DNA of 64,000 nt from sequence record NC_055721.1. One strand, given 5' to 3'. Shown in pieces: positions 3,402 to 13,284 of the stretch. Made by a program: the position numbers and the translations under genes. This stretch comes from Escherichia phage EcS1. The notes below the pieces were generated by a model. That model saw only the letters and a list, made by a program, of their open reading frames with translations, was not told the origin of the DNA and ran no database searches. How positions within the stretch are numbered: the stretch's first letter is position 1; every line of letters starts with the position of its first letter.

Positions 3402-3706
3402 TAAAAGGCCTCCACAAAGTTATAGAGATTAAAATCTTTTGCATCATACTTACCATAATGAATGGCTTTCATAGTATCGTACATATCATAATACTTTTCA
3501 CGAGCCAGCGTACCAAAGAGATGAATCTTGAGAATGTCCCAATCTTTGCCTAATTCACCACTACTGAAAGAATAAACCTTTTCTACTATTTTAATAATAC
3601 GAAGAGCAACTTCTTGGTCAGTAGGTGAGACCCAACCCCAGTTATGATAAACTGTTCCAGTCACTACACCATCTTTAAAACTTGCTAATCCGGTTGGACA
3701 ACTCAT
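3401..3706 (-). CDS. hypothetical protein
   Basis: 101-aa ORF; start overlaps the upstream stop. Confidence 0.45.
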   Translation of the reverse strand: MSCPTGLASFKDGVVTGTVYHNWGWVSPTDQEVALRIIKIVEKVYSFSSGELGKDWDILKIHLFGTLAREKYYDMYDTMKAIHYGKYDAKDFNLYNFVEAF

Positions 3707-4056
3707 GAGCGAATACCTTTTATGAAATCAAGTGCTTCATCTTTTTTAGATGGTTTAGTTTCTTTAACTATTTTAGGTTTCACAACATCAAAAGTTCCTC
3801 TTTGGACTTGACCTACAAAGAACACCCAACGAGCTGTGATACTTGAAAATGTAATTATTGCTGCAGCTATAGCTAAAAATAACAGTGGACTTCCAAAGAT
3901 AGGACTAAAGAAGAATAAAGTATAATAAGTCCCGAAGCCAGCTATTGCGGTTGAACCAAAAAGAACCAGAATGAAGAAGAATACCCAGCCTTCTTCATTG
4001 TAAGAAGACTTTCGGTACCCACGATAAATGGTCTTAATCATTTTGAACCTCTGCAT
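3703..4056 (-). CDS. hypothetical membrane protein
   Basis: 117 aa with two long hydrophobic segments (FFFILVLFGSTAIAGFG..., LLFLAIAAAIITF...). Confidence 0.45.
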   Translation of the reverse strand: MQRFKMIKTIYRGYRKSSYNEEGWVFFFILVLFGSTAIAGFGTYYTLFFFSPIFGSPLLFLAIAAAIITFSSITARWVFFVGQVQRGTFDVVKPKIVKETKPSKKDEALDFIKGIRS

Positions 4057-4583
4057 CCTTGAATAAAGTCAGCAATTGATTTCTGTGCTTCATATTTCTT
4101 CTCTTTACGAATAGCAAAAGGAAGTTTAACTAATGACCAAATGAGTCCATCAATCCAAGTTGTTAGAACAGAAAATAAAATCAATGTAATGTTAAGAAGA
4201 ATCCCTACAAAGATTAATTCAATTGTAGAATGAGACTGAGTTATAAAAGTAAAATTAGCTAAAACAATCATTGCAATAGTGATAGGGCCTAAGACACGGT
4301 TGATTCCAGTATCCTTAGGTTTCTTAATTTGAGGCTGATAACCTCTTGCTACGTAAGCCATAGTATTTTCCTCATAATGAAGACCAAGTTCTTCGGCTAC
4401 TTCTATTTCGGCTGATTTACGAATTTGGCGATCATAGTCACCATATTTTTCTTCAAAATTACGTACTCTTCTACAGAGTTTACAATCACAGTCGTCACTA
4501 TACCCTTCGCTAGTAGGCCAAAGGTCATGATGTTGAACAACCATTTTTAATCTCCAAAATTGAGTGACCAGTATATCACTCAA
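4038..4583 (-). CDS. hypothetical protein, Cys-containing N-terminal region and C-terminal transmembrane segments
   Basis: 181 aa; CDCKLCRR motif near the N-terminus, hydrophobic helices at the C-terminus. Confidence 0.5.
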   Translation of the reverse strand: MSDILVTQFWRLKMVVQHHDLWPTSEGYSDDCDCKLCRRVRNFEEKYGDYDRQIRKSAEIEVAEELGLHYEENTMAYVARGYQPQIKKPKDTGINRVLGPITIAMIVLANFTFITQSHSTIELIFVGILLNITLILFSVLTTWIDGLIWSLVKLPFAIRKEKKYEAQKSIADFIQGCRGSK

Positions 4584-4650: not shown

Positions 4651-4989
4651 CTAGCTTCGGCTTTTTTTTTGTTTCTTAGCTTCTTTTGTTTCTTTGAATT
4701 GTTTACCGATCCATCCGTCTTGAGAATGAACTTGACAGCTGCTGTCCATTTTAACCCACCAACACCAACGGTAAATCCAATGAGCCCAAACATAGAATCC
4801 TGATACTATAAAGGACCAAACCAAGATACCTGAGTCTTCAACTTTAAAAATGGTTTCTAATCCAGTATAAACTGTGATTGCTGTCAACGTGCTGAAAATA
4901 ATTGAACATAAAAGGAACAAGAAGAATTTCTCAGTCTTCCAGATTTCACGAGAGTTACGATAATACATGTACAGAGTTTCAATAATCAT
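4651..4989 (-). CDS. hypothetical membrane protein (may extend to 4599 by a -1 shift at an A9 tract)
   Basis: 112-aa ORF with transmembrane helices, ending just after an A9 run; the overlapping 4599..4793 ORF continues in the -1 frame. Confidence 0.45.
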   Translation of the reverse strand: MIIETLYMYYRNSREIWKTEKFFLFLLCSIIFSTLTAITVYTGLETIFKVEDSGILVWSFIVSGFYVWAHWIYRWCWWVKMDSSCQVHSQDGWIGKQFKETKEAKKQKKSRS

Positions 4990-5363
4990 TATTTCACCTT
5001 ACATTCTTTGATGAACATCTCTATTTTAAGACTAGTTTTATTAGCTTCGGCTGCAGCTTCTTCTATTTGATTTTGTAGTTTGAGCTTTTGATTCCGAAGA
5101 CGAGCTGGGATAAAATAAATCCATCCTAATGGTTTATACCCAAATAATGCTAAAAATTCTACAATTACAAGAGAATAACCACCAATTGCGAAAAACAGTT
5201 TACCAAACTCTTGTCCAGAAACACCTATAATTCCTAAAGTCATAATTAATATTAATAAAACAAGACACCAAACTAATAATCCAATAAGAGCAGAAGATAT
5301 TTTATCAGGTTTATCAAATGAAGTGCGTTCAAAAGAATTATAACGAAAATAATGAGCCATCAT
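4989..5363 (-). CDS. hypothetical membrane protein
   Basis: 124 aa with long hydrophobic stretches (LIGLLVWCLVLLILIMTLGIIGV...). Confidence 0.5.
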   Translation of the reverse strand: MMAHYFRYNSFERTSFDKPDKISSALIGLLVWCLVLLILIMTLGIIGVSGQEFGKLFFAIGGYSLVIVEFLALFGYKPLGWIYFIPARLRNQKLKLQNQIEEAAAEANKTSLKIEMFIKECKVK

Positions 5364-6172
5364 TTCACCTCAACATGCTTAGTACGACACATCTTAACAA
5401 ACTCTTCTACAGCAAGAAGATTTACGCCTTTATCATGATCAACAAATGATTTCATTTGTTCTGGTAAATCTTCTAAGAACCATTGGCGATTTTTATCACT
5501 ATAACTTCCACGAGAAGATTCAAAATTATACACACTCATGCATAAAGCAAATCGGAATGTTTTACCTTCAATACGAGCTTCAAACCAGGCACCATATAAA
5601 GATTCAGTAGAATATTTACTTGAATCAGGTTTAATAAAATGATTAGCAGCATCATTATAATGCATCAAAGAATATTCATAAGCTCTGAGACCTAAGAACT
5701 TAATACCTTCAGACATACAAGAAACATCTTTTATAACTTTCAAAAATGTTTTTGAATCTTTAACATATACTGGAGCTGGGATTTTATTACCAATAGCATA
5801 TTGATGCATACGGATTTTATCAGTGCTCTGACGTTCGATATGCTTTACAATGTAATGTAAAAATGTATTAGGTGCTCCAGTATCAATTAGCTGTTGCATC
5901 ATAAGTACTCCGCCTGCGCTTGTTACATTCGACGGAATTTTAAATTTTTCTGGCTCTGCAGTCCAGACACCATCGCCTTCATAAAACATATTATTTCTCT
6001 CACTTAAAGGTAATGAATTTAATGCAATGAGTGCTTTCACTACGTATGAATCAAGTTTGCTCAATTCATAATTATCATGTAACAATGGTGTAATAAAACC
6101 TACACTCAGAGCATGTTCTTGACCTTGTTTGTTCGCATAGAAAACACGAAAGTCGTTAGTGAAAATAAACAT
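5360..6172 (-). CDS. hypothetical protein
   Basis: 270-aa ORF, 4-nt overlap with the downstream gene; no motif recognised. Confidence 0.55.
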   Translation of the reverse strand: MFIFTNDFRVFYANKQGQEHALSVGFITPLLHDNYELSKLDSYVVKALIALNSLPLSERNNMFYEGDGVWTAEPEKFKIPSNVTSAGGVLMMQQLIDTGAPNTFLHYIVKHIERQSTDKIRMHQYAIGNKIPAPVYVKDSKTFLKVIKDVSCMSEGIKFLGLRAYEYSLMHYNDAANHFIKPDSSKYSTESLYGAWFEARIEGKTFRFALCMSVYNFESSRGSYSDKNRQWFLEDLPEQMKSFVDHDKGVNLLAVEEFVKMCRTKHVEVK

Positions 6173-6211
6173 TGTTCCTCCAAAGAGGACCGAAGTCCTC
6201 TTTATTACGAT

Positions 6212-6817
6212 TTATGCTTTCAGAGATTCGAGGTATTCAGCCAAGTCAGCGCTGGTAGACTCGACACCTGTTGCATTGCTGCCGTTGAATGTATCGATAC
6301 GAGAGATAATGGTATCAACATCAACTTTAGCGAGTTCAGCTGTTTCAATGATATCGTCTGCGGTAGAGAGACCCATTGAGTTGGCTGCATTACTTTCACG
6401 GATGAACTCAAGCTTAACAGCCAGGTCAGCACGTTGGTCATCAAGAGCAACTGTAGTACGTTCAATTTCTTCTTGCATTGCTACAAGTTCAGAAGCTTTA
6501 GTACGAAGAGCTGCTGCGGTACGACGATACAGAAGACCCAGTTTAGCGTGAGTGGTCACATCAACTGTAGGCTGAGTTTGCATCAGATGACGGATTTCAC
6601 GTTCTTTAGAAGCTGCATTTTGGTCTTTTTCATCAGCCAGAGCTTTCAAACGTGAGATTTCTTTCTTAGAAGTCGCATAACGTTTACGCAACTGATTGAT
6701 TTTATCGATGATTTTGTTCGCTGCTTCAGCATACTGTTGTTCGATTGTAGTGTGCTTAGTCATGAAGAAAGACAGCTGAGAACGAATGAATTCAACGATT
6801 TTTTTCAGAATAGACAT
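6212..6817 (-). CDS. coiled-coil protein, PspA/IM30-like (tentative)
   Basis: 201 aa; N-terminal amphipathic helix followed by long charged heptad-like stretches (RLKALADEKDQNAASKEREIRHL..., ELVAMQEEIERTTVALDDQRADLAVKLEF...) resembling the PspA/Vipp1 family. Confidence 0.45.
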   Translation of the reverse strand: MSILKKIVEFIRSQLSFFMTKHTTIEQQYAEAANKIIDKINQLRKRYATSKKEISRLKALADEKDQNAASKEREIRHLMQTQPTVDVTTHAKLGLLYRRTAAALRTKASELVAMQEEIERTTVALDDQRADLAVKLEFIRESNAANSMGLSTADDIIETAELAKVDVDTIISRIDTFNGSNATGVESTSADLAEYLESLKA

Positions 6818-6874
6818 AATATTTCCTTTCAGTTTAAAGTAGATGTATTTTAATACTCAATAATATAAGCAAAC

Positions 6875-7160: not shown

Positions 7161-7196
7161 CCGAAAGGGACCGCTAGGGTCCCTTCTTTTATTTAC
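7161..7196 (-). terminator. intrinsic terminator candidate after internal-protein gene
   Basis: Hairpin GGGACC-CTAGC-GGTCCC followed on the minus strand by TTTCGGGTCTTT, immediately 3' of the 7189..7794 stop. Confidence 0.45.
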
Positions 7197-7794
7197 GTGA
7201 TTTTTCGTAACGAGCAGCGTCAGCAGCCAGAGTACCAGCGTTGCGAAGCTTATTGCTGATTTCTTTATGCAGAGGCTGAGTATAACGCAAACTTTCAATT
7301 GTTAGATACAGATTGTAAAGGTCTGGAGTTTCAAGGTTGTTCATGTGTTGATTATTACGCAGCTTAGCATATTCACGAACCAGAACGTTAGTTTCACTTT
7401 CAATCTCATTAATCAGTGAAGATAATTGCTTATACTTTTTAACTAATGAAGAAGTATCAAAGTTAAACTTAGGTCCTGCAACTGGTTTAGGAGCTGGCTT
7501 TGCGGCCGCAGGCTTAGGAGCCACAACTGGTTTAGCAACAGGAGCAGACTTAGGTGCTGGAGTTGCTTTTGGAGTTGCTTTAGCAGTACCGCCACCAGCT
7601 ACGATATCTTTAAACGCTTTAGATGCTTTATAATAGTCTTTTTGACTATCAGTACTAAAGCCATACATGTCTTTCACTGCTTTAAAGAACTCTGTAGTGG
7701 TTTTAGTTCCTTTAATCGAATCATAAGCAGCTTGCCACTTGTCTTTAGTCATACGCTCAGTAGCTTCTGAGATGAATTCTTTGAATTTTAACAT
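7189..7794 (-). CDS. internal head protein-like, capsid targeting sequence plus Ala/Pro/Lys-rich region
   Basis: N-terminus MLKFKEFISEA resembles the internal-protein targeting sequence; central low-complexity tract KATPKATPAPKSAPVAKPVVAPKPAAAKPAPKPVAGPK. Confidence 0.55.
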   Translation of the reverse strand: MLKFKEFISEATERMTKDKWQAAYDSIKGTKTTTEFFKAVKDMYGFSTDSQKDYYKASKAFKDIVAGGGTAKATPKATPAPKSAPVAKPVVAPKPAAAKPAPKPVAGPKFNFDTSSLVKKYKQLSSLINEIESETNVLVREYAKLRNNQHMNNLETPDLYNLYLTIESLRYTQPLHKEISNKLRNAGTLAADAARYEKSRK

Positions 7795-8119: not shown

Positions 8120-8196
8120 TGGTGCTGAATGCAGGAATCGAACCCGCGACCTTCTCATTACAAGTGAGCTGCTCTACCTACTGAGCTAATTCAGCA
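8120..8196 (-). tRNA. tRNA-Thr (anticodon TGT)
   Basis: Cloverleaf read by hand; sequence closely resembles T4 tRNA-Thr; CCA encoded. Confidence 0.75.
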
Positions 8197-8199
8197 ATT

Positions 8200-8284
8200 T
8201 GGTGCATCGAGAGGGATTCGAACCCTCAATCCTCGCGGCGTGGCATTTTAAGTGCCATGTGTATACCAGTTCCACCATCGATGC
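8200..8284 (-). tRNA. tRNA-Leu (anticodon TAA)
   Basis: 85-nt class II tRNA with long variable arm; anticodon loop CTTAAAA; CCA encoded. Confidence 0.7.
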
Positions 8285-8288
8285 GAAT

Positions 8289-8363
8289 TGGTCGAGACAG
8301 TAGGGATCGAACCTACGACCTAGGACTTAGAAGGTCCTTGCTCTTCCGTCTGAGCTATGCCCC
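8289..8363 (-). tRNA. tRNA-Arg (anticodon TCT)
   Basis: Anticodon arm GGAC-CTTCTAA-GTCC, T-loop TTCGATC, CCA encoded. Confidence 0.7.
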
Positions 8364-8525
8364 GTCTTTGTATAAACGTTCTAAGTAAACATGCTCCATC
8401 GGTTTAACGATTTCGCCTTGTTTCAATAATTGTGTTTGAATAGGATTCAAATTATAAAATTTGATCACATCTCTGAGATCTTGTTCGCTATAATTAAAAG
8501 TTCCTACTTCTACTCCGATTTGCAT
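8355..8525 (-). CDS. hypothetical small protein (56 aa)
   Basis: Small ORF between tRNA genes, not in the supplied track (below its length cut-off); stop overlaps the tRNA-Arg 5' end. Confidence 0.25.
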   Translation of the reverse strand: MQIGVEVGTFNYSEQDLRDVIKFYNLNPIQTQLLKQGEIVKPMEHVYLERLYKDGA

Positions 8526-8537
8526 AAGTATCCTTTT

Positions 8538-8624
8538 TGGAGCTAGGAGTGAGATTCGAACTCACGAAAGCATAACGCTACTGGATTTGCAATCCAGCGC
8601 CTTTGACCACTCGGCAATCCTAGC
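8538..8624 (-). tRNA. class II-type tRNA with anticodon GCA (Cys) and U73 discriminator
   Basis: 87 nt; acceptor GCTAGGA/TCCTAGC, Ser/Tyr-like D-arm GCCGAGTGGTCAAAGGC, anticodon stem CTGGA/TCCAG with loop TTGCAAA, 15-nt variable arm, T-loop TTCGAAT. Confidence 0.5.
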
Positions 8625-8626
8625 AA

Positions 8627-8754
8627 ATGTTCAGGTGGGAGTCGAACCCACACGATTGAAGCCTCTCATCGGGTTACCTCTTACTCAGCTGGGTGCTTAA
8701 ACCAGCGTTTCAAACAGAGTCCGCCAACATGTCTACCGATTCCATCACTGAACA
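8627..8754 (-). ncRNA. tRNA-like stable RNA candidate (about 128 nt)
   Basis: Perfect 7-bp acceptor-like pairing (TGTTCAG/CTGAACA) next to a canonical T-arm (GTGGG-TTCGACT-CCCAC) and a Leu-like D region (GGAATCGGTAGAC), but too long for a tRNA and without a clean anticodon arm. Confidence 0.35.
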
Positions 8755-8758
8755 ATTT

Positions 8759-8983
8759 TTACATATCTACTTGACAAAACCAGTTCATTTCAAAATATTC
8801 ATCAAAATGTAATGCAGGTTCTACTTGACAATTTTCTTCTAATAAGACCAAATTTCTTCTAACAATAGGGTCTAATGACGTGATGGTCAAAGCACTATCA
8901 TGATAGTAAATCAGAACACGAAGCGAATCTGTATCAACTAAATACCGAACATTCATATCAGGATGTTTGTAGAGGTTAATCAT
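8759..8983 (-). CDS. hypothetical protein
   Basis: 74-aa ORF upstream of the tRNA block. Confidence 0.4.
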   Translation of the reverse strand: MINLYKHPDMNVRYLVDTDSLRVLIYYHDSALTITSLDPIVRRNLVLLEENCQVEPALHFDEYFEMNWFCQVDM

Positions 8984-8989
8984 AACATT

Positions 8990-9436
8990 TTATCCTTGAA
9001 GCATTTCACGAACACGATAAAGATTAGAACAGAATTCTTGTTCAGTTAGAACAGTTTCATTCTTTTTATTCTTACCCATGCTATGAGTTAATGTTGAGTT
9101 ACGCGTAGCTAGGAGTGCTCTCTTGAATCCTTCATTCAAAGCCAGAGAATCATATGCTCGCTGAATTAAAGACGTATAGGCTATACTTTGACGTAAAATA
9201 GGGACACCTTTCCAGTACAACGTTTGGGTGCGCCACCAGTTCTTTTTCTTACCTTTGAACTTAGCTTTCTTACCAACTAATGTACAGACATGCTCTTGCA
9301 TTTCTACTGAAGAAAACTTCAATGATTGCAAGAAACCTTCCATTGATGCACACTGTACTCCATCAATTTCGAAAGCATGAGGAGCAAAGTTACTTAATGC
9401 ACAACTTGGGTACATTGAACCTGAACCAATATCCAT
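8990..9436 (-). CDS. NADAR-domain protein (YbiA/DUF1768-like)
   Basis: LSNFAPHAFEIDGVQCASMEGFLQSLKF and FKRALLATRNSTLTHS match conserved NADAR blocks (compare E. coli YbiA FSNFAAWPIKVDGKTWPTSEHYFQAQKF and LRALLLATAPAKLVEHT). Confidence 0.65.
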   Translation of the reverse strand: MDIGSGSMYPSCALSNFAPHAFEIDGVQCASMEGFLQSLKFSSVEMQEHVCTLVGKKAKFKGKKKNWWRTQTLYWKGVPILRQSIAYTSLIQRAYDSLALNEGFKRALLATRNSTLTHSMGKNKKNETVLTEQEFCSNLYRVREMLQG

Positions 9437-9527
9437 TATCCATTATTCCTTTGATGATAATAACAGCGTTTACATCGATACCAACCGAAATAATCTTTGT
9501 AGATTATTCTATTGCAGTTGGGACATT

Positions 9528-9782
9528 TCATGCTGGTTCTACCTCAGTCATTGTTGTCCGTTTCAGAACCACACAACCTTCTATTTCAGGGTCTTTCTTA
9601 ACCAGAACTCGTCCAGTAGGCGAAATAAGGCCAGTAATATGATTCAGAGCTTTAGCAGCATCATTGAAGCCATCAGCTTGCATAATCGTTCCGAATGAGA
9701 ACCCTTGATAGTGATTACTAAACTCGTAATAAGCGTATTCTTCACGAATAGGGCAATAAATCACATAATCAACATTCAGCAT
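9528..9782 (-). CDS. hypothetical protein
   Basis: 84-aa ORF. Confidence 0.4.
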   Translation of the reverse strand: MLNVDYVIYCPIREEYAYYEFSNHYQGFSFGTIMQADGFNDAAKALNHITGLISPTGRVLVKKDPEIEGCVVLKRTTMTEVEPA

Positions 9783-10114
9783 AAGTCACCTACACATTGG
9801 AGAGCACGATGGTGTGACCATATTTCTAAAGTCTTTTCGTTGGCTTTATTAATTCGACGAAGGTCATTTAAATTACCTTTAACATATAACCCAAGTTCAC
9901 TTAACAAATGATCGATAGTGAAATAAGAAATATCTCGCAGTGGAGCATAACGGAACTTAATGAAGTGCCATTCATCAAACTCGTTTTTGGTAAACGCATA
10001 ATCAGCATGCATCATGAGTTCGCGAATCGTTTCACGCATCAAAAAGACATTACCGTGATAAGAATCATTTATAGCAACAATATGTGGACCTACACCTAGA
10101 TAGATACGAGACAT
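9776..10114 (-). CDS. hypothetical protein
   Basis: 112-aa ORF preceded by RBS GAGGAAA. Confidence 0.45.
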   Translation of the reverse strand: MSRIYLGVGPHIVAINDSYHGNVFLMRETIRELMMHADYAFTKNEFDEWHFIKFRYAPLRDISYFTIDHLLSELGLYVKGNLNDLRRINKANEKTLEIWSHHRALQCVGDLC

Positions 10115-10133
10115 AATATTTTCCTCAGTCAGT

Positions 10134-10304
10134 TTATTCTACATCATATTCAACTACAAGCACTTCTTCATAATCTTCAGGATTAAGAGTTTTAATGTAG
10201 TCTTCTGCTTTTTCTTTACTCGATAGAATCTTTAATGGCTTTGAATATTCATCATATCCATATTCACAGTTAAACTCTGACATAACAACTGCGTATACTA
10301 TCAT
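10134..10304 (-). CDS. hypothetical small acidic protein (56 aa)
   Basis: ORF below the track cut-off; the same RBS (GAGGAAAATATT-ATG) as the downstream gene. Confidence 0.35.
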   Translation of the reverse strand: MIVYAVVMSEFNCEYGYDEYSKPLKILSSKEKAEDYIKTLNPEDYEEVLVVEYDVE

Positions 10305-10324
10305 AATATTTTCCTCATTTGAAT

Positions 10325-10401
10325 TGGTGGCCCTTGTCGGAGTCTAACCGACCTTACACCAGTTATGAGCTGGGCACTTTCACACGAAAGTATAAAGGGC
10401 C
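10325..10401 (-). tRNA. tRNA-Met-like (anticodon CAT), non-canonical D and T loops
   Basis: 77 nt with perfect acceptor stem and CCA, anticodon loop CTCATAA; D-loop lacks GG and T-loop is TTAGACT. Confidence 0.4.
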
Positions 10402-10458
10402 ATTATTAAAATATTTTTACTTTAATAATGGCCCTCTCCGAAGAGAGGACAGAGGGTA

Positions 10459-10743
10459 TTACTTACACATGAACTTAGCAACTTCATCGAAGCTGTTCAA
10501 GATGTAATAAGACTTAGGCGCACTGTATTCAGTAGGTTTAATAGTAATACGTACACGACCATGCAAGTCTTCAACTAATCCAACAACAGCACTTGAACGA
10601 ACAACAGCACGAGCAGTTGTAGGAATCTGACCGGTAGTCAGAGCTTGAAGTTCGGTGTCAATAAGGATTACAATACGTTCAGACATTTTAATTTCCATTT
10701 GTTGTTTCGATGTAGTAATAATAACATGATTATTTTGAAGCAT
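10459..10743 (-). CDS. hypothetical protein
   Basis: 94-aa ORF; start uncertain (internal Met candidates). Confidence 0.4.
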   Translation of the reverse strand: MLQNNHVIITTSKQQMEIKMSERIVILIDTELQALTTGQIPTTARAVVRSSAVVGLVEDLHGRVRITIKPTEYSAPKSYYILNSFDEVAKFMCK

Positions 10744-10801
10744 AACCGTTCAGAGACTAAAAAGCCCAGTACAAGATTTCTCTTGCCCGGGCGTCATTAT
10801 T

Positions 10802-10876
10802 TGGAGCAGCATATCGGACTCGAACCGATGTCGACTGGGTGGAAGCCAGTAATATTAACCACTATACGAATGCTGC
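10802..10876 (-). tRNA. tRNA-Gly (anticodon TCC)
   Basis: Acceptor GCAGCAT/ATGCTGC, anticodon arm ACTGG-CTTCCAC-CCAGT, T-loop TTCGAGT, CCA encoded. Confidence 0.7.
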
Positions 10877-10877
10877 A

Positions 10878-10951
10878 TGGCAGGCCCTGTAGGAATCGAA
10901 CCCACGTCGCTGAGGTTGGAGCTCAGAATGATACCACTATACCAAGGACCC
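10878..10951 (-). tRNA. tRNA-Trp (anticodon CCA)
   Basis: Anticodon arm CTGAG-CTCCAAC-CTCAG, T-loop TTCGATT, CCA encoded. Confidence 0.65.
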
Positions 10952-11102
10952 GTTGATTGTACGGAACGCCTGGATTCGAACCAGGTTACAAAGCAGTTGA
11001 CGCTCCTTTGTATTTTGTAAGGCCATCATCTCGACCATATCCGAACGTTTCGTCAAAAACGCTACTCGGCTTATGGCAAAGACAAATCCTCGAACCGATA
11101 AT

Positions 11103-11177
11103 TGGTGGGAGCTGTTGGTAACGATCCAACCTCTCGAGCTCTTCAGGCAAGCGCTAATCCGTCTCAGCTAAACTCCC
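11103..11177 (-). tRNA. tRNA-Phe-like (anticodon GAA), weakened anticodon stem
   Basis: 75 nt, acceptor GGGAGTT/AGCTCCC plus ACCA; anticodon loop CTGAAGA; two mismatches in the anticodon stem and an atypical T-loop. Confidence 0.4.
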
Positions 11178-11262
11178 AGATCCACAAGAACTTTACAAGC
11201 ATTGCGCTTAACCTTTTCAGGAAGTTAGGGTACTATTTCTAGTCTGTGGTTATCCCTATTTT

Positions 11263-11338
11263 TGGTGGGAATAGCTGGATTTGAACCAGCGACCTATCGC
11301 TTATCGGGCGAGTGCTCTACCAACTGAGCTATATTCCC
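11263..11338 (-). tRNA. tRNA-Ile (anticodon GAT)
   Basis: Acceptor GGGAATA/TATTCCC, D-arm GCTC-AGTTGGTA-GAGC, anticodon loop CCGATAA (C33), T-loop TTCAAAT, CCA encoded. Confidence 0.6.
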
Positions 11339-11344
11339 ATAATT

Positions 11345-11421
11345 TGGTCTCCATATAAGGATTTGAACCTTAGACCTCCTGGCCCCAAACCAGGCGCTCT
11401 ACCAAACTGAGCTACACGGAG
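11345..11421 (-). tRNA. tRNA-Pro (anticodon TGG)
   Basis: Anticodon arm CCTGG-TTTGGGG-CCAGG, T-loop TTCAAAT, CCA encoded. Confidence 0.7.
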
Positions 11422-11422
11422 A

Positions 11423-11668
11423 TTAATTTATATCAAATATGGTGCCATCTTTCCACATCATTGCGAAAAGAGGTGAAACTTTTGTTAAACGGTGTGCAAC
11501 TTTAACTTGACGGCTAAAACCTTCAATTTGAGCACCATAACCATTTATATCTAATACAAGACCAATATGAACTTTGCCAATATCAGACATACCATTTGAA
11601 GGTAATCCAATCATGACATAATCGTTAACTTCGATTTGTTTACCATATTTGTCAAATAATATCTTCAT
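11423..11668 (-). CDS. hypothetical protein
   Basis: 81-aa ORF embedded in the tRNA cluster. Confidence 0.4.
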   Translation of the reverse strand: MKILFDKYGKQIEVNDYVMIGLPSNGMSDIGKVHIGLVLDINGYGAQIEGFSRQVKVAHRLTKVSPLFAMMWKDGTIFDIN

Positions 11669-11693
11669 AATTATTTATTCACCATATTTTAAT

Positions 11694-11787
11694 TGGAGGA
11701 AGCTGTGAGATTTGAACTCACGGAACCTGTCCCCAGGACCTCTAGTTTTCAAGACTAGTGCAATAAACCAGACTCTGCCAAGCTTCC
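11694..11787 (-). tRNA. tRNA-Ser (anticodon TGA)
   Basis: 94-nt class II tRNA; anticodon arm CTAGT-CTTGAAA-ACTAG, long variable arm, T-loop TTCAAAT, CCA encoded. Confidence 0.7.
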
Positions 11788-11791
11788 GAAT

Positions 11792-11867
11792 TGGGGTGAC
11801 CTGTGGAATTCGAATCCACGACTACGAGAATCACAATCTCGAGTTCTACCAACTGAACTAAGGCCAC
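11792..11867 (-). tRNA. tRNA-His (anticodon GTG)
   Basis: Anticodon arm CGAGA-TTGTGAT-TCTCG, T-loop TTCGAAT, CCA encoded. Confidence 0.7.
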
Positions 11868-11967
11868 ATCAATATTCACTCAGCCACTTCGTGCGGACCT
11901 GTCTCGATATTACGTGTAGTGGATTAGCTAGTTCACACCACTATATCGTCTAGAATGAATATTAATT

Positions 11968-12043
11968 TGGCTAGAGCGCTTGGATTCGAACCAAGGAATA
12001 CCAGAATCAAAATCTGGTGTCGTAACCGCTTGACTACGCTCTA
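11968..12043 (-). tRNA. tRNA-Gln (anticodon TTG)
   Basis: Perfect acceptor TAGAGCG/CGCTCTA, anticodon arm CCAGA-TTTTGAT-TCTGG, T-loop TTCGAAT, CCA encoded. Confidence 0.7.
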
Positions 12044-12045
12044 AT

Positions 12046-12121
12046 TGGAGGCGAGTGATGGAATCGAACCATCGCGTAAAGGGATATGAACCCTTTATTC
12101 TACCACTGAAGTTAACTCGCT
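12046..12121 (-). tRNA. tRNA-Met (anticodon CAT), initiator-like features
   Basis: Anticodon loop TTCATAT closed by three consecutive G-C pairs (GGG/CCC); 1-72 position is an A-C mismatch; T-loop TTCGATT; CCA encoded. Confidence 0.55.
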
Positions 12122-12248
12122 ATTGTCCGGGTTCTCGAAGTAAAAACAAGTAGCTTGATGTAGAACACATAAAGTGGGAACAACTCACTTCATCTCCTAG
12201 CATTATTGTATGGAGACTCAAACTCATCTTCAAGAACTGCTTCGTATT

Positions 12249-12325
12249 TGGCGGACGTGCTTGGACTCGAACCAAGGACCTATCGCTTAACAGGCGACCG
12301 CTCTAACCAACTGAGCTACACATCC
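12249..12325 (-). tRNA. tRNA-Asn (anticodon GTT)
   Basis: Anticodon loop CTGTTAA, T-loop TTCGAGT, CCA encoded. Confidence 0.7.
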
Positions 12326-12329
12326 AAAA

Positions 12330-12461
12330 TTTACTTTCAGGGTTACTCGAAGCTCTCAAACCTTCCGGAAAGTCGAATAAGCATCTCATCCTCTCAGAAT
12401 CCCGTGCACAGGAAAAATCTTTATTAGGAGGAGACTAAATCAATATAACCCTGAAAGTAAA
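12330..12461. repeat. perfect 16-bp inverted repeat flanking a 100-nt spacer
   Basis: TTTACTTTCAGGGTTA (12330-12345) and its exact reverse complement TAACCCTGAAAGTAAA (12446-12461); the spacer contains the palindrome TTCCGGAA. Confidence 0.6.
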
Positions 12462-12475
12462 CTTACTTTCGAATT

Positions 12476-12552
12476 TGGTGGGACATCATGGACTCGAACC
12501 ATGGACACCCGGATTAAAAGTCCGGTGCTCTAACCAACTGAGCTAATATCCC
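12476..12552 (-). tRNA. tRNA-Lys (anticodon TTT)
   Basis: Anticodon arm CCGGA-CTTTTAA-TCCGG, T-loop TTCGAGT, CCA encoded. Confidence 0.7.
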
Positions 12553-13060
12553 ATAGATATTTATCTATAAATCTCTTAGCTTGAGTATGACTTATATTTA
12601 AACTTTTACTAAACTTGGTTAATGCACCTCGTTTAGTAAAATCTATTAAATTATAAGCTTCAATTCTAGAAGCAATTTCTTCTTCAGACAAAACCAAAGC
12701 ATGGTTTTCTGAAATCTTTTTACGAGATTCTGTTGTATGTGACATACCAGTAAAACCAAGAGTAGGTTTTAGTCTACCATTAGCTTTAGCGTCTTGTGCA
12801 TTTTGTTTATTTGTCGCACAATAAATGTTTTCTAATGAATAAGGACCTATATCGCCTTTACGACACATGCAATAATCCAAACTTGCTTTACCACGTAAAT
12901 GATATTTACCTGTTGATTTCCACCAAGTAAACCACTCATCAAAAGTTAGATTAAATTCAATACCACGAGCTTTGGCATGAACTTTTTGCATACGGTACTT
13001 TTCATAATCTTCCATACAACTCTCACAAATTGGCAGTGCCGACGGGATTCGAACCCGCAT
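12530..13060 (-). CDS. putative HNH-type homing endonuclease with NUMOD-like and HTH-like C-terminal motifs
   Basis: CxxC plus Cys/His-rich N-terminal region (CESC...DYCMCRKGDIGPYSLENIYCATNKQN), NUMOD3-like GFTGMSHTTESRKKISENH, C-terminal HTH-like segment; both ORF ends overlap tRNA genes, so the true start is probably the internal Met at about 13015. Confidence 0.45.
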   Translation of the reverse strand: MRVRIPSALPICESCMEDYEKYRMQKVHAKARGIEFNLTFDEWFTWWKSTGKYHLRGKASLDYCMCRKGDIGPYSLENIYCATNKQNAQDAKANGRLKPTLGFTGMSHTTESRKKISENHALVLSEEEIASRIEAYNLIDFTKRGALTKFSKSLNISHTQAKRFIDKYLWDISSVG

Positions 13061-13105
13061 GGTCTCCCGTGACAGGGGAGTATATTACCAAGTCTACCAC
13101 GGCAC
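13030..13105 (-). tRNA. tRNA-Asp (anticodon GTC)
   Basis: Perfect acceptor AGTGCCG/CGGCACT, anticodon arm CTCCC-CTGTCAC-GGGAG, T-loop TTCGAAT, CCA encoded. Confidence 0.7.
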
Positions 13106-13111
13106 TATTGT

Positions 13112-13187
13112 TTGGTACTCTGTAGGAGAATTGAACTCCTCTTCCCAGGTTGAAAACCTGGTGTCCTAACCGATAGACGAACAGAGC
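13112..13187 (-). tRNA. tRNA-Glu (anticodon TTC)
   Basis: Anticodon arm CCAGG-TTTTCAA-CCTGG, T-loop TTCAATT, CCA encoded. Confidence 0.65.
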
Positions 13188-13195
13188 TAAGAATT

Positions 13196-13284
13196 TGGTG
13201 CACCGAGAAGGACTCGAACCTACGAAGCTCATTACAAGCAGGAGATTTACAGTCTCCACCCTTTGCCACTCGGGTCATCGATGC
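13196..13284 (-). tRNA. tRNA-Tyr (anticodon GTA)
   Basis: 89-nt class II tRNA; D region CCCGAGTGGCAAAGGG and anticodon arm GGAGA-CTGTAAA-TCTCC resemble E. coli tRNA-Tyr; CCA encoded. Confidence 0.65.

What the first reader, a model, noticed from the sequence alone, without database searches (positions are those of the whole stretch)
6212..6817. PspA/IM30 (Vipp1)-like coiled-coil protein in the early accessory region
The 201-aa product has an N-terminal amphipathic helix followed by long charged heptad-like helices, a pattern reminiscent of the PspA/IM30 family of membrane-remodelling, envelope-stress proteins. Sitting beside a run of small membrane proteins, it could protect or remodel the inner membrane during infection or take part in lysis timing. 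I am not aware of such a gene in T4.
Basis: inference. Interest (0 to 1): 0.55.

Follow-up and report, generated by a model that had tools for sequence, protein, structure and literature searches.

The report
Phage T4 e.6-type PspA-like protein
This gene is the EcS1 copy of phage T4's uncharacterised early gene e.6, and profile comparisons show that the whole e.6 family is a very diverged, phage-only branch of the bacterial PspA/Vipp1 (ESCRT-III-like) membrane-protecting proteins; that kinship had already been proposed in 2022 for a Salmonella phage relative, and the function is still untested.

Summary
Window 6212-6817 (minus strand) encodes a 201-aa soluble, all-helical protein with an N-terminal amphipathic helix and a long helical hairpin. 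The window comes from Escherichia phage EcS1 (gp147).

The protein itself has no PF04012 hit, and its T4-type clade alone gives no signal above a reversed-sequence control. It is nevertheless clearly homologous (HHalign 100%, E 4e-42, full length) to an Ackermannviridae-type branch. Members of that branch pass Pfam's own PspA_IM30 threshold (39.0 and 35.1 bits against 33.9). A diverse family profile aligns end to end with E. coli PspA (93.6%, E 3e-8), and its eight best PDB sequence hits are all Vipp1/PspA. Shuffle and reversal controls exclude composition bias.

The statement that T4 lacks such a gene is wrong. This is the ortholog of T4 e.6 (54% identity), present in more than 1,100 phage records. 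In T4 it has early RNA and middle protein kinetics and is non-essential.

The PspA kinship of this family (phrog_1203) was already published for a Kuttervirus in 2022. This is therefore a new member of a known, functionally untested kind. The most likely role is a phage-supplied, regulator-free inner-membrane and proton-motive-force stabiliser; that role is inferred.

The parts
6212..6817 (-). CDS, 201 aa. EcS1 gp147, the ortholog of T4 e.6 (phrog_1203). A divergent PspA/IM30-like protein.
   Evidence: PspA link.
6755..6814 (-). Codons 2-21: N-terminal amphipathic helix, the counterpart of PspA/Vipp1 helix alpha0.
   Evidence: Hydrophobic moment 0.54, the top 18-mer of the protein. The hydrophobic/basic pattern '.hh++hh-hh+..h.hhh.+' is in register with PspA '.hh.+h.-hh...h..hh-+' and with Vipp1. 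The region is aligned.
6575..6748 (-). Codons 24-81: first arm of the helical hairpin (alpha1 equivalent).
   Evidence: AF2 helix 3-81, pLDDT >90 from ~residue 30. Aligned to PspA alpha1.
6557..6574 (-). Codons 82-87: hairpin tip loop.
   Evidence: AF2 non-helical residues 82-87. This is the site of length variation in the family. It aligns to the PspA/Vipp1 hairpin tip.
6329..6556 (-). Codons 88-163: second arm of the hairpin (alpha2/3 equivalent). Contains Gly149, the only residue invariant across the diverse family.
   Evidence: AF2 helix 88-163. G149 is invariant in A4.
6218..6319 (-). Codons 167-200: two short C-terminal helices (alpha4/alpha5 equivalents). Conserved R-I-D-T-F and D-L-A-E-Y-L-E-S-L-K motifs.
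   Evidence: AF2 helices 167-180 and 188-200, but pLDDT is below 60. Global HHalign places RIDTF on PspA RFESF (167-171) and the C-terminus on ISEQLAQLKAK, with a ~21-residue deletion between them.
6824..6828 (-). Shine-Dalgarno sequence AAGGA, 6 nt upstream of the ATG.
   Evidence: Read directly. AAGGAAAT is invariant in five phages.
6847..6873 (-). Putative middle-type promoter: MotA-box-like TTTGCTTAT, 12 nt, then TAAAAT. It starts directly after the stop codon of the upstream gene.
   Evidence: Read directly. This is an inference only. The generic sigma-70 scan is at background level. T4, T2, CBH8 and Virsaitis27 instead share GTTTAC at the corresponding place. T4 e.6 RNA is classed as early.
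6182..6203 (-). UUCG-tetraloop hairpin (AAAGAGGAC-UUCG-GUCCUCUUU) 8 nt after the stop codon. Probably an mRNA 3' stabiliser or partial terminator, followed by the ribosome-binding site of the e.5-like gene.
   Evidence: -15.1 kcal/mol, z -4.1, 0 of 200 shuffles fold as well. It is conserved in T4, T2, CBH8 and Virsaitis27 with compensatory stem changes. Terminator-like hairpins also follow the homologs in Kevin and Maroon.
5360..6172 (-). Downstream neighbour, 270 aa, e.5-like (phrog_13418 / phrog_2607). Shown for the conserved e.6-e.5 synteny. Not a demonstrated functional partner.
   Evidence: T4 e.5 = phrog_2607. No TM segment.

Best explanation
Window 6212-6817(-) is the Escherichia phage EcS1 ortholog of T4 gene e.6. 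It is a 201-aa soluble all-helical protein belonging to a phage-restricted family (phrog_1203). That family is a deeply diverged, slightly shortened branch of the PspA/IM30/Vipp1 (bacterial ESCRT-III-like) superfamily.

Shown:
- Orthology to T4 e.6.
- Full-length homology to a branch of the family whose members pass Pfam's PspA_IM30 threshold.
- End-to-end, N-terminus-anchored profile alignment to E. coli PspA.
- A PspA-type amphipathic alpha0 helix followed by a confident long helical hairpin.
- In T4: early RNA, middle protein kinetics, and dispensability in standard laboratory infection.

Inferred mechanism:
- The protein is made early from its own promoter-to-hairpin unit.
- It docks on the cytoplasmic face of the inner membrane through alpha0.
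- It polymerises through the hairpin into ESCRT-III-like carpets or rods.
- This limits proton leakage and keeps the proton-motive force and ATP supply up during the latent period.
- The membrane insults it would counter are tail puncture and superinfection, insertion of many small phage membrane proteins and holin, and pore-forming or depolarising host abortive-infection effectors.

T4-type phages shut off host transcription, so the sigma-54/PspF-dependent host psp operon cannot be properly induced. The phage would therefore bring its own PspA, free of PspF and PspBC control.
For: Identity:
- 100% identical to EcS1 gp147.
- phrog_1203 at 7e-75 over the full length.
- T4 e.6 is 54% identical, E 8e-70.
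- 1,132 phage records carry a relative, with e.5/tRNA synteny as in T2 and T4.

PspA homology:
- PF04012 is the Pfam family hit by most members of the diverse alignment (6 of 31).
- P0067 scores 39.0 bits and P0073 scores 35.1 bits against a gathering threshold of 33.9. The match covers protein 6-146 and profile 2-143 of 220.
- Those proteins match the window protein by phmmer at 5.4e-9 and 3.5e-7 in a library of 1.84 billion proteins.
- HHalign of the T4-type clade against that branch gives 100%, E 4e-42, 199 columns.
- hmmsearch with the family profile against the PDB returns Vipp1/PspA as all of the top 8 hits (4.8e-5 to 6e-4), query 1-143 on chain 1-144.
- HHalign against E. coli-type PspA gives 91%, E 1.1e-6 in local mode, and 93.6%, E 3.3e-8 in global mode, covering 1-201 on 1-222.
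- Controls score far lower than the real 47.0: reversed 15.3, column shuffles <=19.2, heptad-block shuffles <=20.7. Circular shifts recover the same register.
- Foldseek against the PDB puts Vipp1 (7o3w) at rank 1, with several other Vipp1 entries and CHMP1B among the top hits.
- The alpha0 pattern and hydrophobic moment fit PspA and Vipp1.
- The AF2 hairpin has pLDDT above 90.

Independent annotations:
- 'PspA protein' in Serratia phage Kevin.
- 'PspA/IM30 family protein' in Salmonella phage vB_SentM_sal1.
- HHsearch against pdb70 for the Kuttervirus SeF3a protein, with a proposal that phrog_1203 = phage_shock_protein_A (PMC9409062).

Expression and context:
- T4 e.6 has early RNA and middle protein kinetics (PMC9697503).
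- The host psp operon is only weakly induced by T4 but strongly by PhiX174 (PMC12795941).
- The gene has its own promoter-like element and a conserved hairpin after the stop codon.
Against: - The window protein itself has no PF04012 hit.
- Its own clade gives no significant PspA signal: no PDB hit, and HHalign 20.6 against a reversed control of 21.9. Membership therefore rests on transitivity.
- HH identity to PspA is only ~12%.
- Foldseek E-values are weak, at 2e-3 or worse.
- The structure model used one sequence only, and its C-terminal third has low confidence.
- No membrane binding, polymerisation or PMF effect has been measured for any family member.
- T4 e.6 knock-down has no fitness cost (PMC11879866 supplement).
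- Transposon insertions in T4 e.6 are fully tolerated. The gene is not among the conditional hits reported with RexAB, RnlAB, CBASS, DarTG1/2 or minimal medium (bioRxiv 10.1101/2025.11.20.689424).
- No pspB, pspC or pspF partner is nearby, and the membrane-protein neighbours are not conserved in Citrobacter phage Maroon.
Confidence: 0.6

Rival explanations
1. A dedicated counter-defence factor. The PspA-like protein specifically neutralises host abortive-infection systems that kill by depolarising or permeabilising the inner membrane. This is the hypothesis published for the Kuttervirus homolog.
For: - Proposed for Gp_125 of Salmonella phage SeF3a (PMC9409062).
- Early expression, location in an accessory region and dispensability are typical of anti-defence genes.
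- The gene is patchy within Kuttervirus: 4 of 15 genomes.
Against: - T4 e.6 insertions were not depleted in the presence of RexAB, the classic depolarising Abi system. Only rIIA and rIIB were reported as hits. The gene was also not a hit with CBASS, RnlAB or DarTG.
- The gene is nearly universal in Tevenvirinae (1,132 records). That fits a housekeeping-like accessory function better than a narrow anti-defence gene.
Confidence: 0.17
2. A modulator of the host Psp system rather than an effector. It co-assembles with or caps host PspA (dominant negative), or it binds PspF as PspA does. Either would blunt or rewire the host envelope-stress response, possibly to tune holin triggering, lysis timing or lysis inhibition.
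For: - Homology covers the PspA 1-144 hairpin region. In E. coli PspA this region carries the PspF-binding and self-association surfaces (established knowledge of PspA; not tested here).
- All known hosts of the family are Enterobacterales or Aeromonas.
Against: - Only ~12% identity to host PspA makes conserved heterotypic interfaces unlikely.
- Host transcription is shut off early in T4 infection, so regulating PspF would have little effect.
- Expression is early or middle, not late with the lysis genes.
- No lysis phenotype was reported in the genome-wide screens.
Confidence: 0.1
3. A generic coiled-coil or helical-hairpin protein unrelated by descent to PspA. The similarity would be convergence or composition, and the function something else, such as a scaffold, a chaperone, or a virion component as some database names suggest ('host specificity protein', 'tail completion protein').
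For: - No direct PF04012 hit.
- The T4-type clade alone is indistinguishable from the reversed control.
- Weak sub-threshold hits to many coiled-coil families such as DUF4407.
- Structural-protein names appear in some records.
Against: - Position-specific signal: the real HHalign score of 47 far exceeds reversed, shuffled and heptad-block-shuffled controls (<=21).
- The top 8 of 177,635 PDB sequences are all Vipp1/PspA, although the PDB holds thousands of coiled coils.
- Two members pass the curated Pfam threshold.
- The alignment is co-linear from residue 1 to the C-terminus.
- The alpha0 pattern is in register.
- The structural names carry no supporting evidence, and the T4 gene is expressed early.
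Confidence: 0.08

Closest known systems
T4 gene e.6 (T4p129, NP_049742, UniProt P39224) and phrog_1203
   Same: Ortholog: 54% identity over the full length, E 8e-70. Same length class (197-204 aa). Same position between the tRNA cluster/e.8 and e.5. Same UUCG hairpin after the stop codon. phrog_1203 matches at 7e-75.
   Different: EcS1 (genus Kagamiyamavirus) has a 2-residue longer hairpin tip. It has a TGCTT MotA-box-like element instead of the GTTTAC motif upstream. Its e.5-like neighbour is longer and there are more small TM ORFs downstream.
Kuttervirus/Ackermannviridae PspA-like proteins (Salmonella phage SeF3a Gp_125; Serratia phage Kevin XCN28025; Salmonella phage vB_SentM_sal1)
   Same: Same family: HHalign 100%, E 4e-42, full length; tblastn 27.5% identity. 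Same size, and a terminator-like hairpin follows the gene. The SeF3a protein was already described as a PspA homolog and a possible anti-Abi factor (PMC9409062).
   Different: Only 22-28% identical. That branch retains enough PspA signal to pass PF04012 directly, whereas the T4-type branch does not. The genomic context differs: DNA replication genes in Kevin.
Bacterial PspA / cyanobacterial and plastid Vipp1 (IM30), Pfam PF04012, ESCRT-III superfamily
   Same: N-terminal amphipathic helix in the same register. A long alpha1-alpha2/3 hairpin. C-terminal helices with RFESF-like and LxxLK-like motifs. End-to-end co-linear profile alignment. The size is similar (201 aa against 222 aa).
   Different: ~12% identity. 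A ~21-residue deletion between alpha4 and alpha5. No Pro after alpha0 in this protein, though Pro is present at that position in several family members. No pspBCDE or pspF context. Phage-encoded and expressed early. No Vipp1-type C-terminal extension. No biochemical data.
Eukaryotic/archaeal ESCRT-III (CHMP1B, Vps24, CdvB2)
   Different: No sequence-level signal. No MIM motif or Vps4 partner is evident. The resemblance is at the level of a common hairpin shared with many unrelated proteins.

Membership tests
T4 e.6 family (phrog_1203) | Full-length sequence match to the family profile and to T4 e.6 | tested here: met
   phrog_1203 at E 7e-75, residues 1-200 on profile 1-199 of 200. T4 e.6 at 54% identity, E 8e-70. 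T4 e.6 is listed as phrog_1203 (PMC11879866 supplement).
T4 e.6 family (phrog_1203) | Conserved position in the e-to-tRNA accessory region of Tevenvirinae, upstream of e.5 | tested here: met
   tRNA genes from 8120 upward on the same strand. The downstream gene hits phrog_2607, which is T4 e.5. T2 and T4 maps.
PspA/IM30 (Pfam PF04012) | This protein scores above the Pfam gathering threshold for PspA_IM30 | tested here: not met
   No PF04012 hit at E<=10 for the window protein or for T2 e.6 and the Kevin protein.
PspA/IM30 (Pfam PF04012) | Homology to PspA/IM30 at profile level, directly or through intermediate sequences | tested here: met
   Family members P0067 and P0073 pass the gathering threshold (39.0 and 35.1 against 33.9 bits). 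They are full-length homologs of the window clade. Family profile against the PDB: top 8 hits are Vipp1/PspA. HHalign 91-94%, E 1e-6 to 3e-8, with clean controls. Caveat: the T4-type clade alone is not significant.
PspA/IM30 (Pfam PF04012) | N-terminal amphipathic membrane-binding helix (alpha0) | tested here: met
   Residues 2-19 have hydrophobic moment 0.54, the highest in the protein. The pattern is in register with PspA and Vipp1 alpha0. Membrane binding itself was not tested.
PspA/IM30 (Pfam PF04012) | Long alpha1-alpha2/3 coiled-coil hairpin | tested here: met
PspA/IM30 (Pfam PF04012) | C-terminal helices alpha4/alpha5 that mediate inter-protomer packing | tested here: inconclusive
   Helices 167-180 and 188-200 are predicted, but pLDDT is <60. 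Global HHalign aligns RIDTF on RFESF and the C-terminal LxxLK motif, with a 21-residue deletion and low per-column confidence.
PspA/IM30 (Pfam PF04012) | Self-assembly into rings, rods or carpets on membranes, and reduction of proton leak | not testable with these tools
   Needs purified protein, EM and liposome assays.
Canonical Psp stress-response system (pspF-pspABCDE) | Operon partners PspB/PspC and regulator PspF; sigma-54 promoter | tested here: not met
   The neighbours are phage ORFs of unknown function. The E. coli operon is shown for comparison. The gene sits in a phage early/middle transcription unit.
ESCRT-III superfamily (eukaryotic/archaeal) | ESCRT-III fold with Vps4/MIM-dependent remodelling | tested here: inconclusive
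   The hairpin core matches CdvB2, Vps24, CHMP3 and CHMP1B, but so do many unrelated hairpins. No AAA+ partner was looked for beyond the immediate neighbours.

The most novel reading that the evidence does not exclude
T4 and more than a thousand related Straboviridae and Ackermannviridae phages carry a minimal, regulator-free ESCRT-III/PspA-type polymer. They deploy it early in infection to actively repair or remodel the host inner membrane. Examples would be sealing the injection site, tolerating superinfection and prolonged lysis inhibition, or resisting pore-forming immune effectors. This would be a bacterial-virus counterpart of the use of ESCRT-III by eukaryotic viruses. It would also provide a compact 200-residue model for PspA mechanism in the best-studied phage.
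Probability: 0.35. Interest if true: 0.7.

Novelty: new member of a known kind. Interest (0 to 1): 0.4.

Why it matters
T4 e.6 is still listed as 'conserved hypothetical' or 'unknown function' in RefSeq and in the 2025 genome-wide T4 screens. Tying it and its EcS1 ortholog to the PspA/Vipp1/ESCRT-III superfamily turns an anonymous, near-universal Tevenvirinae gene into a testable one. It suggests how lytic phages that silence host transcription keep the inner membrane energised through the latent period, superinfection and lysis inhibition. It also suggests a class of counter-measures against membrane-depolarising immunity.

The kinship was already proposed at PHROG level in 2022 (PMC9409062). 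The added value here is:
- the explicit link to T4 e.6;
- the demonstration that the signal is transitive;
- the controls against composition bias;
- the compilation of expression and dispensability data.

It is not a new class of protein.

Tried and rejected
1. Only sub-threshold coiled-coil noise appeared: DUF4407 at 6e-5 below its cutoff, and an SMC-related archaeal protein. I rejected these as composition matches because only 3 of 31 members hit DUF4407.

2. A profile of close homologs only (A1) searched against the PDB found nothing relevant. A1 against PspA in HHalign was not above the reversed control.

I used the single sequence instead.

4. The afdb50 fold library was unavailable.

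6. The generic sigma-70 and terminator scan was at background level. Regulatory elements were read by eye and by comparison.

7. Literature searches for 'e.6', P39224 or T4p129 and for phage PspA/ESCRT-III found nothing beyond PMC9409062.

8. The names 'host specificity protein' and 'tail completion protein' were considered and rejected. They have no supporting evidence, and the gene is early and non-structural.

9. A functional operon with the neighbouring small membrane proteins was considered. It was not adopted because the association is absent in Citrobacter phage Maroon, and a hairpin separates e.6 from the downstream genes.
Full report
**1. The observation**

The window contains an ORF at 6212..6817 on the minus strand. 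It has ATG at 6815-6817, TAA at 6212-6214 and encodes 201 aa. An AAGGA ribosome-binding site sits 6 nt upstream.

The protein is 100% identical to KNT65_gp147 of Escherichia phage EcS1. EcS1 belongs to Tevenvirinae, genus Kagamiyamavirus.

The gene is not a chance ORF:
- It matches phrog_1203 end to end at E 7e-75.
- tblastn finds relatives in 1,132 of 50,697 phage records, and 1,130 of those cover at least 80% of the query.
- An exhaustive phmmer scan of 1.84 billion representative proteins finds only 36 clusters, almost all 195-205 aa. The family is compact and phage-restricted.

- Residues 2-19 form the most amphipathic 18-mer in the protein, with hydrophobic moment 0.54. Only 2% of shuffles reach that value.
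- AlphaFold2 on the single sequence predicts helices 3-81 and 88-163 joined by a loop at 82-87. pLDDT is above 90 for residues ~30-130. Two short, low-confidence helices follow at 167-180 and 188-200.
- The protein has no transmembrane segment.

**2. What the gene is**

It is the ortholog of T4/T2 gene e.6:
- T2 e.6 is 53.5% identical by tblastn.
- T4 e.6 (T4p129, 69312-69905, minus strand) is 54% identical over the full length, E 8e-70.

Synteny is the same as in T4:
- A tRNA cluster lies upstream: 17 tRNA genes from 8120 to 13284 on the same strand.
- An e.5-like gene lies immediately downstream. ORF 5360-6172 hits phrog_2607, which is T4 e.5.
- Small membrane proteins follow. ORFs 4989-5363, 4651-4989, 4038-4583 and 3703-4056 all have TM-like segments. 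T2 e.4 and e.3 do as well.

**3. Is it PspA/IM30-like?**

*Tests that fail*
The protein has no PF04012 hit even at E<=10, and no relevant NCBIfam hit.
- A profile built from close relatives (A1, at least 50% identity) finds no PspA in the PDB.
- In HHalign that clade scores 20.6 against PspA and 21.9 against reversed PspA.

*Tests that succeed, using a more diverse alignment*

The diverse alignment A4 has 31 sequences, down to 19% identity to the window protein.
- (a) Scanning every member against Pfam, PspA_IM30 is the family hit by the most members, 6 of 31. Two members pass Pfam's curated gathering threshold: P0067 at 39.0 bits and P0073 at 35.1 bits against 33.9. The match covers protein 6-146 and profile 2-143 of 220. 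P0073 also carries a precomputed PF04012 call and sits on a 156-kb contig.
- (b) hmmsearch with the A4 profile against all PDB sequences returns Vipp1/PspA as all eight top hits (E 4.8e-5 to 6e-4). They are aligned from residue 1 to ~143 in both partners. E. coli PspA 1-144 (4whe) lies further down the list, in the same register.
- (c) HHalign of A4 against an E. coli-type PspA alignment plus Synechocystis Vipp1 (A5) gives 91%, E 1.1e-6 in local mode. In global mode it gives 93.6%, E 3.3e-8, over 197 columns, covering e.6 1-201 and PspA 1-222.
- (d) Controls show the signal is position-specific and not coiled-coil composition. The real score is 47.0. Reversed PspA scores 15.3, 30 column shuffles score at most 19.2, and 30 heptad-block shuffles score at most 20.7. 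Circular permutations always recover the same register.
- (e) The link between the window's clade and the PspA-passing branch is beyond doubt. HHalign of A1 against the below-30%-identity branch gives 100%, E 4e-42, over 199 columns. Against only the four PF04012-hitting members it gives 99.7%, E 1e-25. phmmer from the window protein gives 5.4e-9 and 3.5e-7.

*Conclusion on homology*

The homology is real but transitive. The Ackermannviridae-type branch has kept recognisable PspA sequence features. The T4-type branch, including this protein, has diverged beyond direct detection.

**4. Feature-by-feature comparison with PspA**

- *Alpha0.* The pattern of SILKKIVEFIRSQLSFFMTK matches [20 protein letters not shown] (PspA) and GLFDRLGRVVRANLNDLVSK (Vipp1) position for position in hydrophobic and basic residues.
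- *Proline after alpha0.* Several family members have a Pro at the position of PspA Pro25 (for example SPED, TPED and SPEE). This protein has TTIEQ there.
- *Hairpin tip.* The tip carries a conserved Gly in most family members, and an LAL / LGLLY motif follows where PspA and Vipp1 have LAREAL.
- *Alpha4 and alpha5.* The conserved R-I-D-T-F (173-177) aligns on PspA R-F-E-S-F (167-171). The C-terminal DLAEYLESLK aligns on ISEQLAQLKAK. A ~21-residue deletion lies between them. Both the model confidence and the alignment confidence are low in this region, so the alpha4/alpha5 equivalence is provisional.
- *Gly149.* This is the only residue invariant across the diverse family. Its role is unknown.

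**5. Structure comparison**

- Foldseek against the PDB puts Vipp1 first (7o3w_A, E 2.3e-3, 218 columns, 18% identity). More Vipp1 entries and CHMP1B are among the top hits. Chemoreceptor, F-BAR and SMC hairpins are interleaved, and no hit is below 1e-3.
- The fold is compatible with PspA but does not by itself establish membership.
- BFVD returned only family members.

**6. Expression, regulation and dispensability**

*Expression in T4.* T4 e.6 is classed as early RNA / middle protein in time-resolved omics (PMC9697503, supplementary files 4 and 6).

*Upstream element.*
- In EcS1 the stop codon of the upstream gene is followed directly by TTTGCTTAT, 12 nt, then TAAAAT (6873-6847). This resembles a T4 MotA-dependent middle promoter.
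- T4, T2, CBH8 and Virsaitis27 instead share GTTTAC, a T4 early -35-like motif, at the corresponding place.
- These promoter assignments are my inference. The generic scan was at background level.

*Downstream hairpin.*
- Eight nucleotides after the stop codon lies a UUCG-tetraloop hairpin at 6203-6182. It folds at -15.1 kcal/mol with z -4.1.
- It is conserved in five phages with compensatory stem changes.
- GNRA-loop, U-tailed hairpins follow the homologs in Serratia phage Kevin and Citrobacter phage Maroon.
- The gene therefore looks like a discrete, well-expressed unit.

*Dispensability in the laboratory.*
- CRISPRi-ART knock-down of T4 e.6 is 'Not Fit', meaning no fitness effect (PMC11879866, supplementary file 15).
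- In HIDEN-SEQ, 43 of 43 insertion sites are tolerated and the gene is called 'Non-essential'. One conditional comparison gives log2FC -0.20, not significant.
- The paper reports no e.6 hit with RexAB, RnlAB, CBASS, DarTG1/2 or minimal medium.

**7. Prior knowledge**

- One paper in the searchable library mentions phrog_1203. PMC9409062 (Int J Mol Sci 2022) found by HHsearch against pdb70 that Gp_125 of Salmonella Kuttervirus SeF3a is homologous to PspA. It proposed the annotation 'phage_shock_protein_A' for phrog_1203 (125 members) and hypothesised an anti-abortive-infection role through preservation of the proton-motive force.
- A few GenBank records carry 'PspA protein' or 'PspA/IM30 family protein'.
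- Most records say 'hypothetical'. Some say, without visible basis, 'host specificity protein' or 'tail completion protein'.
- I found no source that connects T4 e.6 itself with PspA.

**8. Mechanism (inferred)**

By analogy with established PspA/Vipp1 biology:
- Alpha0 senses and binds stressed inner membrane.
- The hairpin polymerises into ESCRT-III-like assemblies.
- Proton leak is reduced.

The most economical reading is that e.6 is a phage-supplied membrane and proton-motive-force stabiliser.

The rationale is as follows. T4-type phages shut off host transcription, so the sigma-54/PspF-dependent psp operon cannot respond. Published transcriptomics fit this: psp is strongly induced by PhiX174 but only weakly or partially by T4 (PMC12795941). 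Meanwhile the phage itself perforates the membrane and loads it with proteins. A regulator-free PspA made early would fill that gap.

Its dispensability in rich-medium, single-host laboratory infections fits a stress or condition-specific role. It could also reflect redundancy with basal host PspA.

Rivals:
- A dedicated anti-Abi factor. This is weakened by the negative RexAB result, although rII may mask an effect.
- A modulator of host PspA or PspF, or of lysis timing. This is weakened by ~12% identity and early expression.
- An unrelated coiled coil. This is weakened by the controls and the Pfam-threshold hits.

**9. Verdict**

- The feature is real.
- The T4 statement is wrong.
- The thing is a new member of an already-noted, still uncharacterised kind.
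- Interest is moderate. It concerns a near-universal gene of the model phage T4 with a clear, testable hypothesis, but it is not a new class and there is no functional evidence.

Noticed in passing
window 8990-9436 (-): A 148-aa ORF matches Pfam PF08010 Phage_30_3 at 1.5e-57. This is the family of T4 gp30.3/AdfN, the NADAR-type anti-DarTG1 factor described in the HIDEN-SEQ paper. Here it sits inside the tRNA region, not at the T4 gene-30 locus.
   Followed up: partly
window 8120-13284 (-): A large tRNA cluster of 17 genes (Thr, Leu, Arg, Cys, Gly, Trp, Ile, Pro, Ser, His, Gln, Met, Asn, Lys, Asp, Glu, Tyr), interrupted by small ORFs. It has about twice as many tRNA genes as T4's own cluster (8, from my knowledge of T4; not checked here).
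   Followed up: no
window 3703-4056 (-) and 4651-4989 (-): Two small ORFs with TM-like segments both hit phrog_9350 (9e-39 and 2e-8). They look like diverged paralogs within the run of small membrane proteins downstream of e.6/e.5.
   Followed up: partly
window 7189-7794 (-): A 201-aa ORF (phrog_2280, unknown function) with a ~45-residue Ala/Pro/Lys-rich low-complexity linker (KATPKATPAPKSAPVAKPVVAPKPAAAKPAPKPVAGPK) between two folded-looking ends. A terminator-like hairpin lies on the opposite strand at 7165-7185.
   Followed up: no
window 9436-9531 (-): A 31-aa ORF, MKCPNCNRIIYKDYFGWYRCKRCYYHQRNNG, with two CxxC pairs. It looks like a zinc-ribbon mini-protein, and its last base is the first base of the gp30.3-like gene.
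   Followed up: no
window 6182-6203 (-); L001 5597-5612; L005, L006 and L007 equivalents: The UUCG-tetraloop hairpin after e.6 is conserved across EcS1, T2, T4, CBH8 and Virsaitis27. The stem sequence changes in a compensatory way (GAGGAC/GUCCUC, GAGGGC/GCCCUC, GGGGC/GCCCC). This suggests selection for the RNA structure itself.
   Followed up: partly
public records of e.6 homologs: Several database entries name e.6 homologs 'host specificity protein' (UniRef/Winklervirus, Kosakonia phage Kc304, vB-Eco-KMB26, UPEC01) or 'tail completion protein' (Klebsiella phage UPM 2146). These names look like unsupported propagated annotations.
   Followed up: partly
window 6847-6873 (-) compared with T4/T2/CBH8/Virsaitis27 upstream regions (alignment A6): EcS1 has replaced the GTTTAC early-promoter-like motif that the other four phages share upstream of e.6 with a TGCTT MotA-box-like motif. 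This may shift the gene from early to middle timing in this genus.
   Followed up: partly
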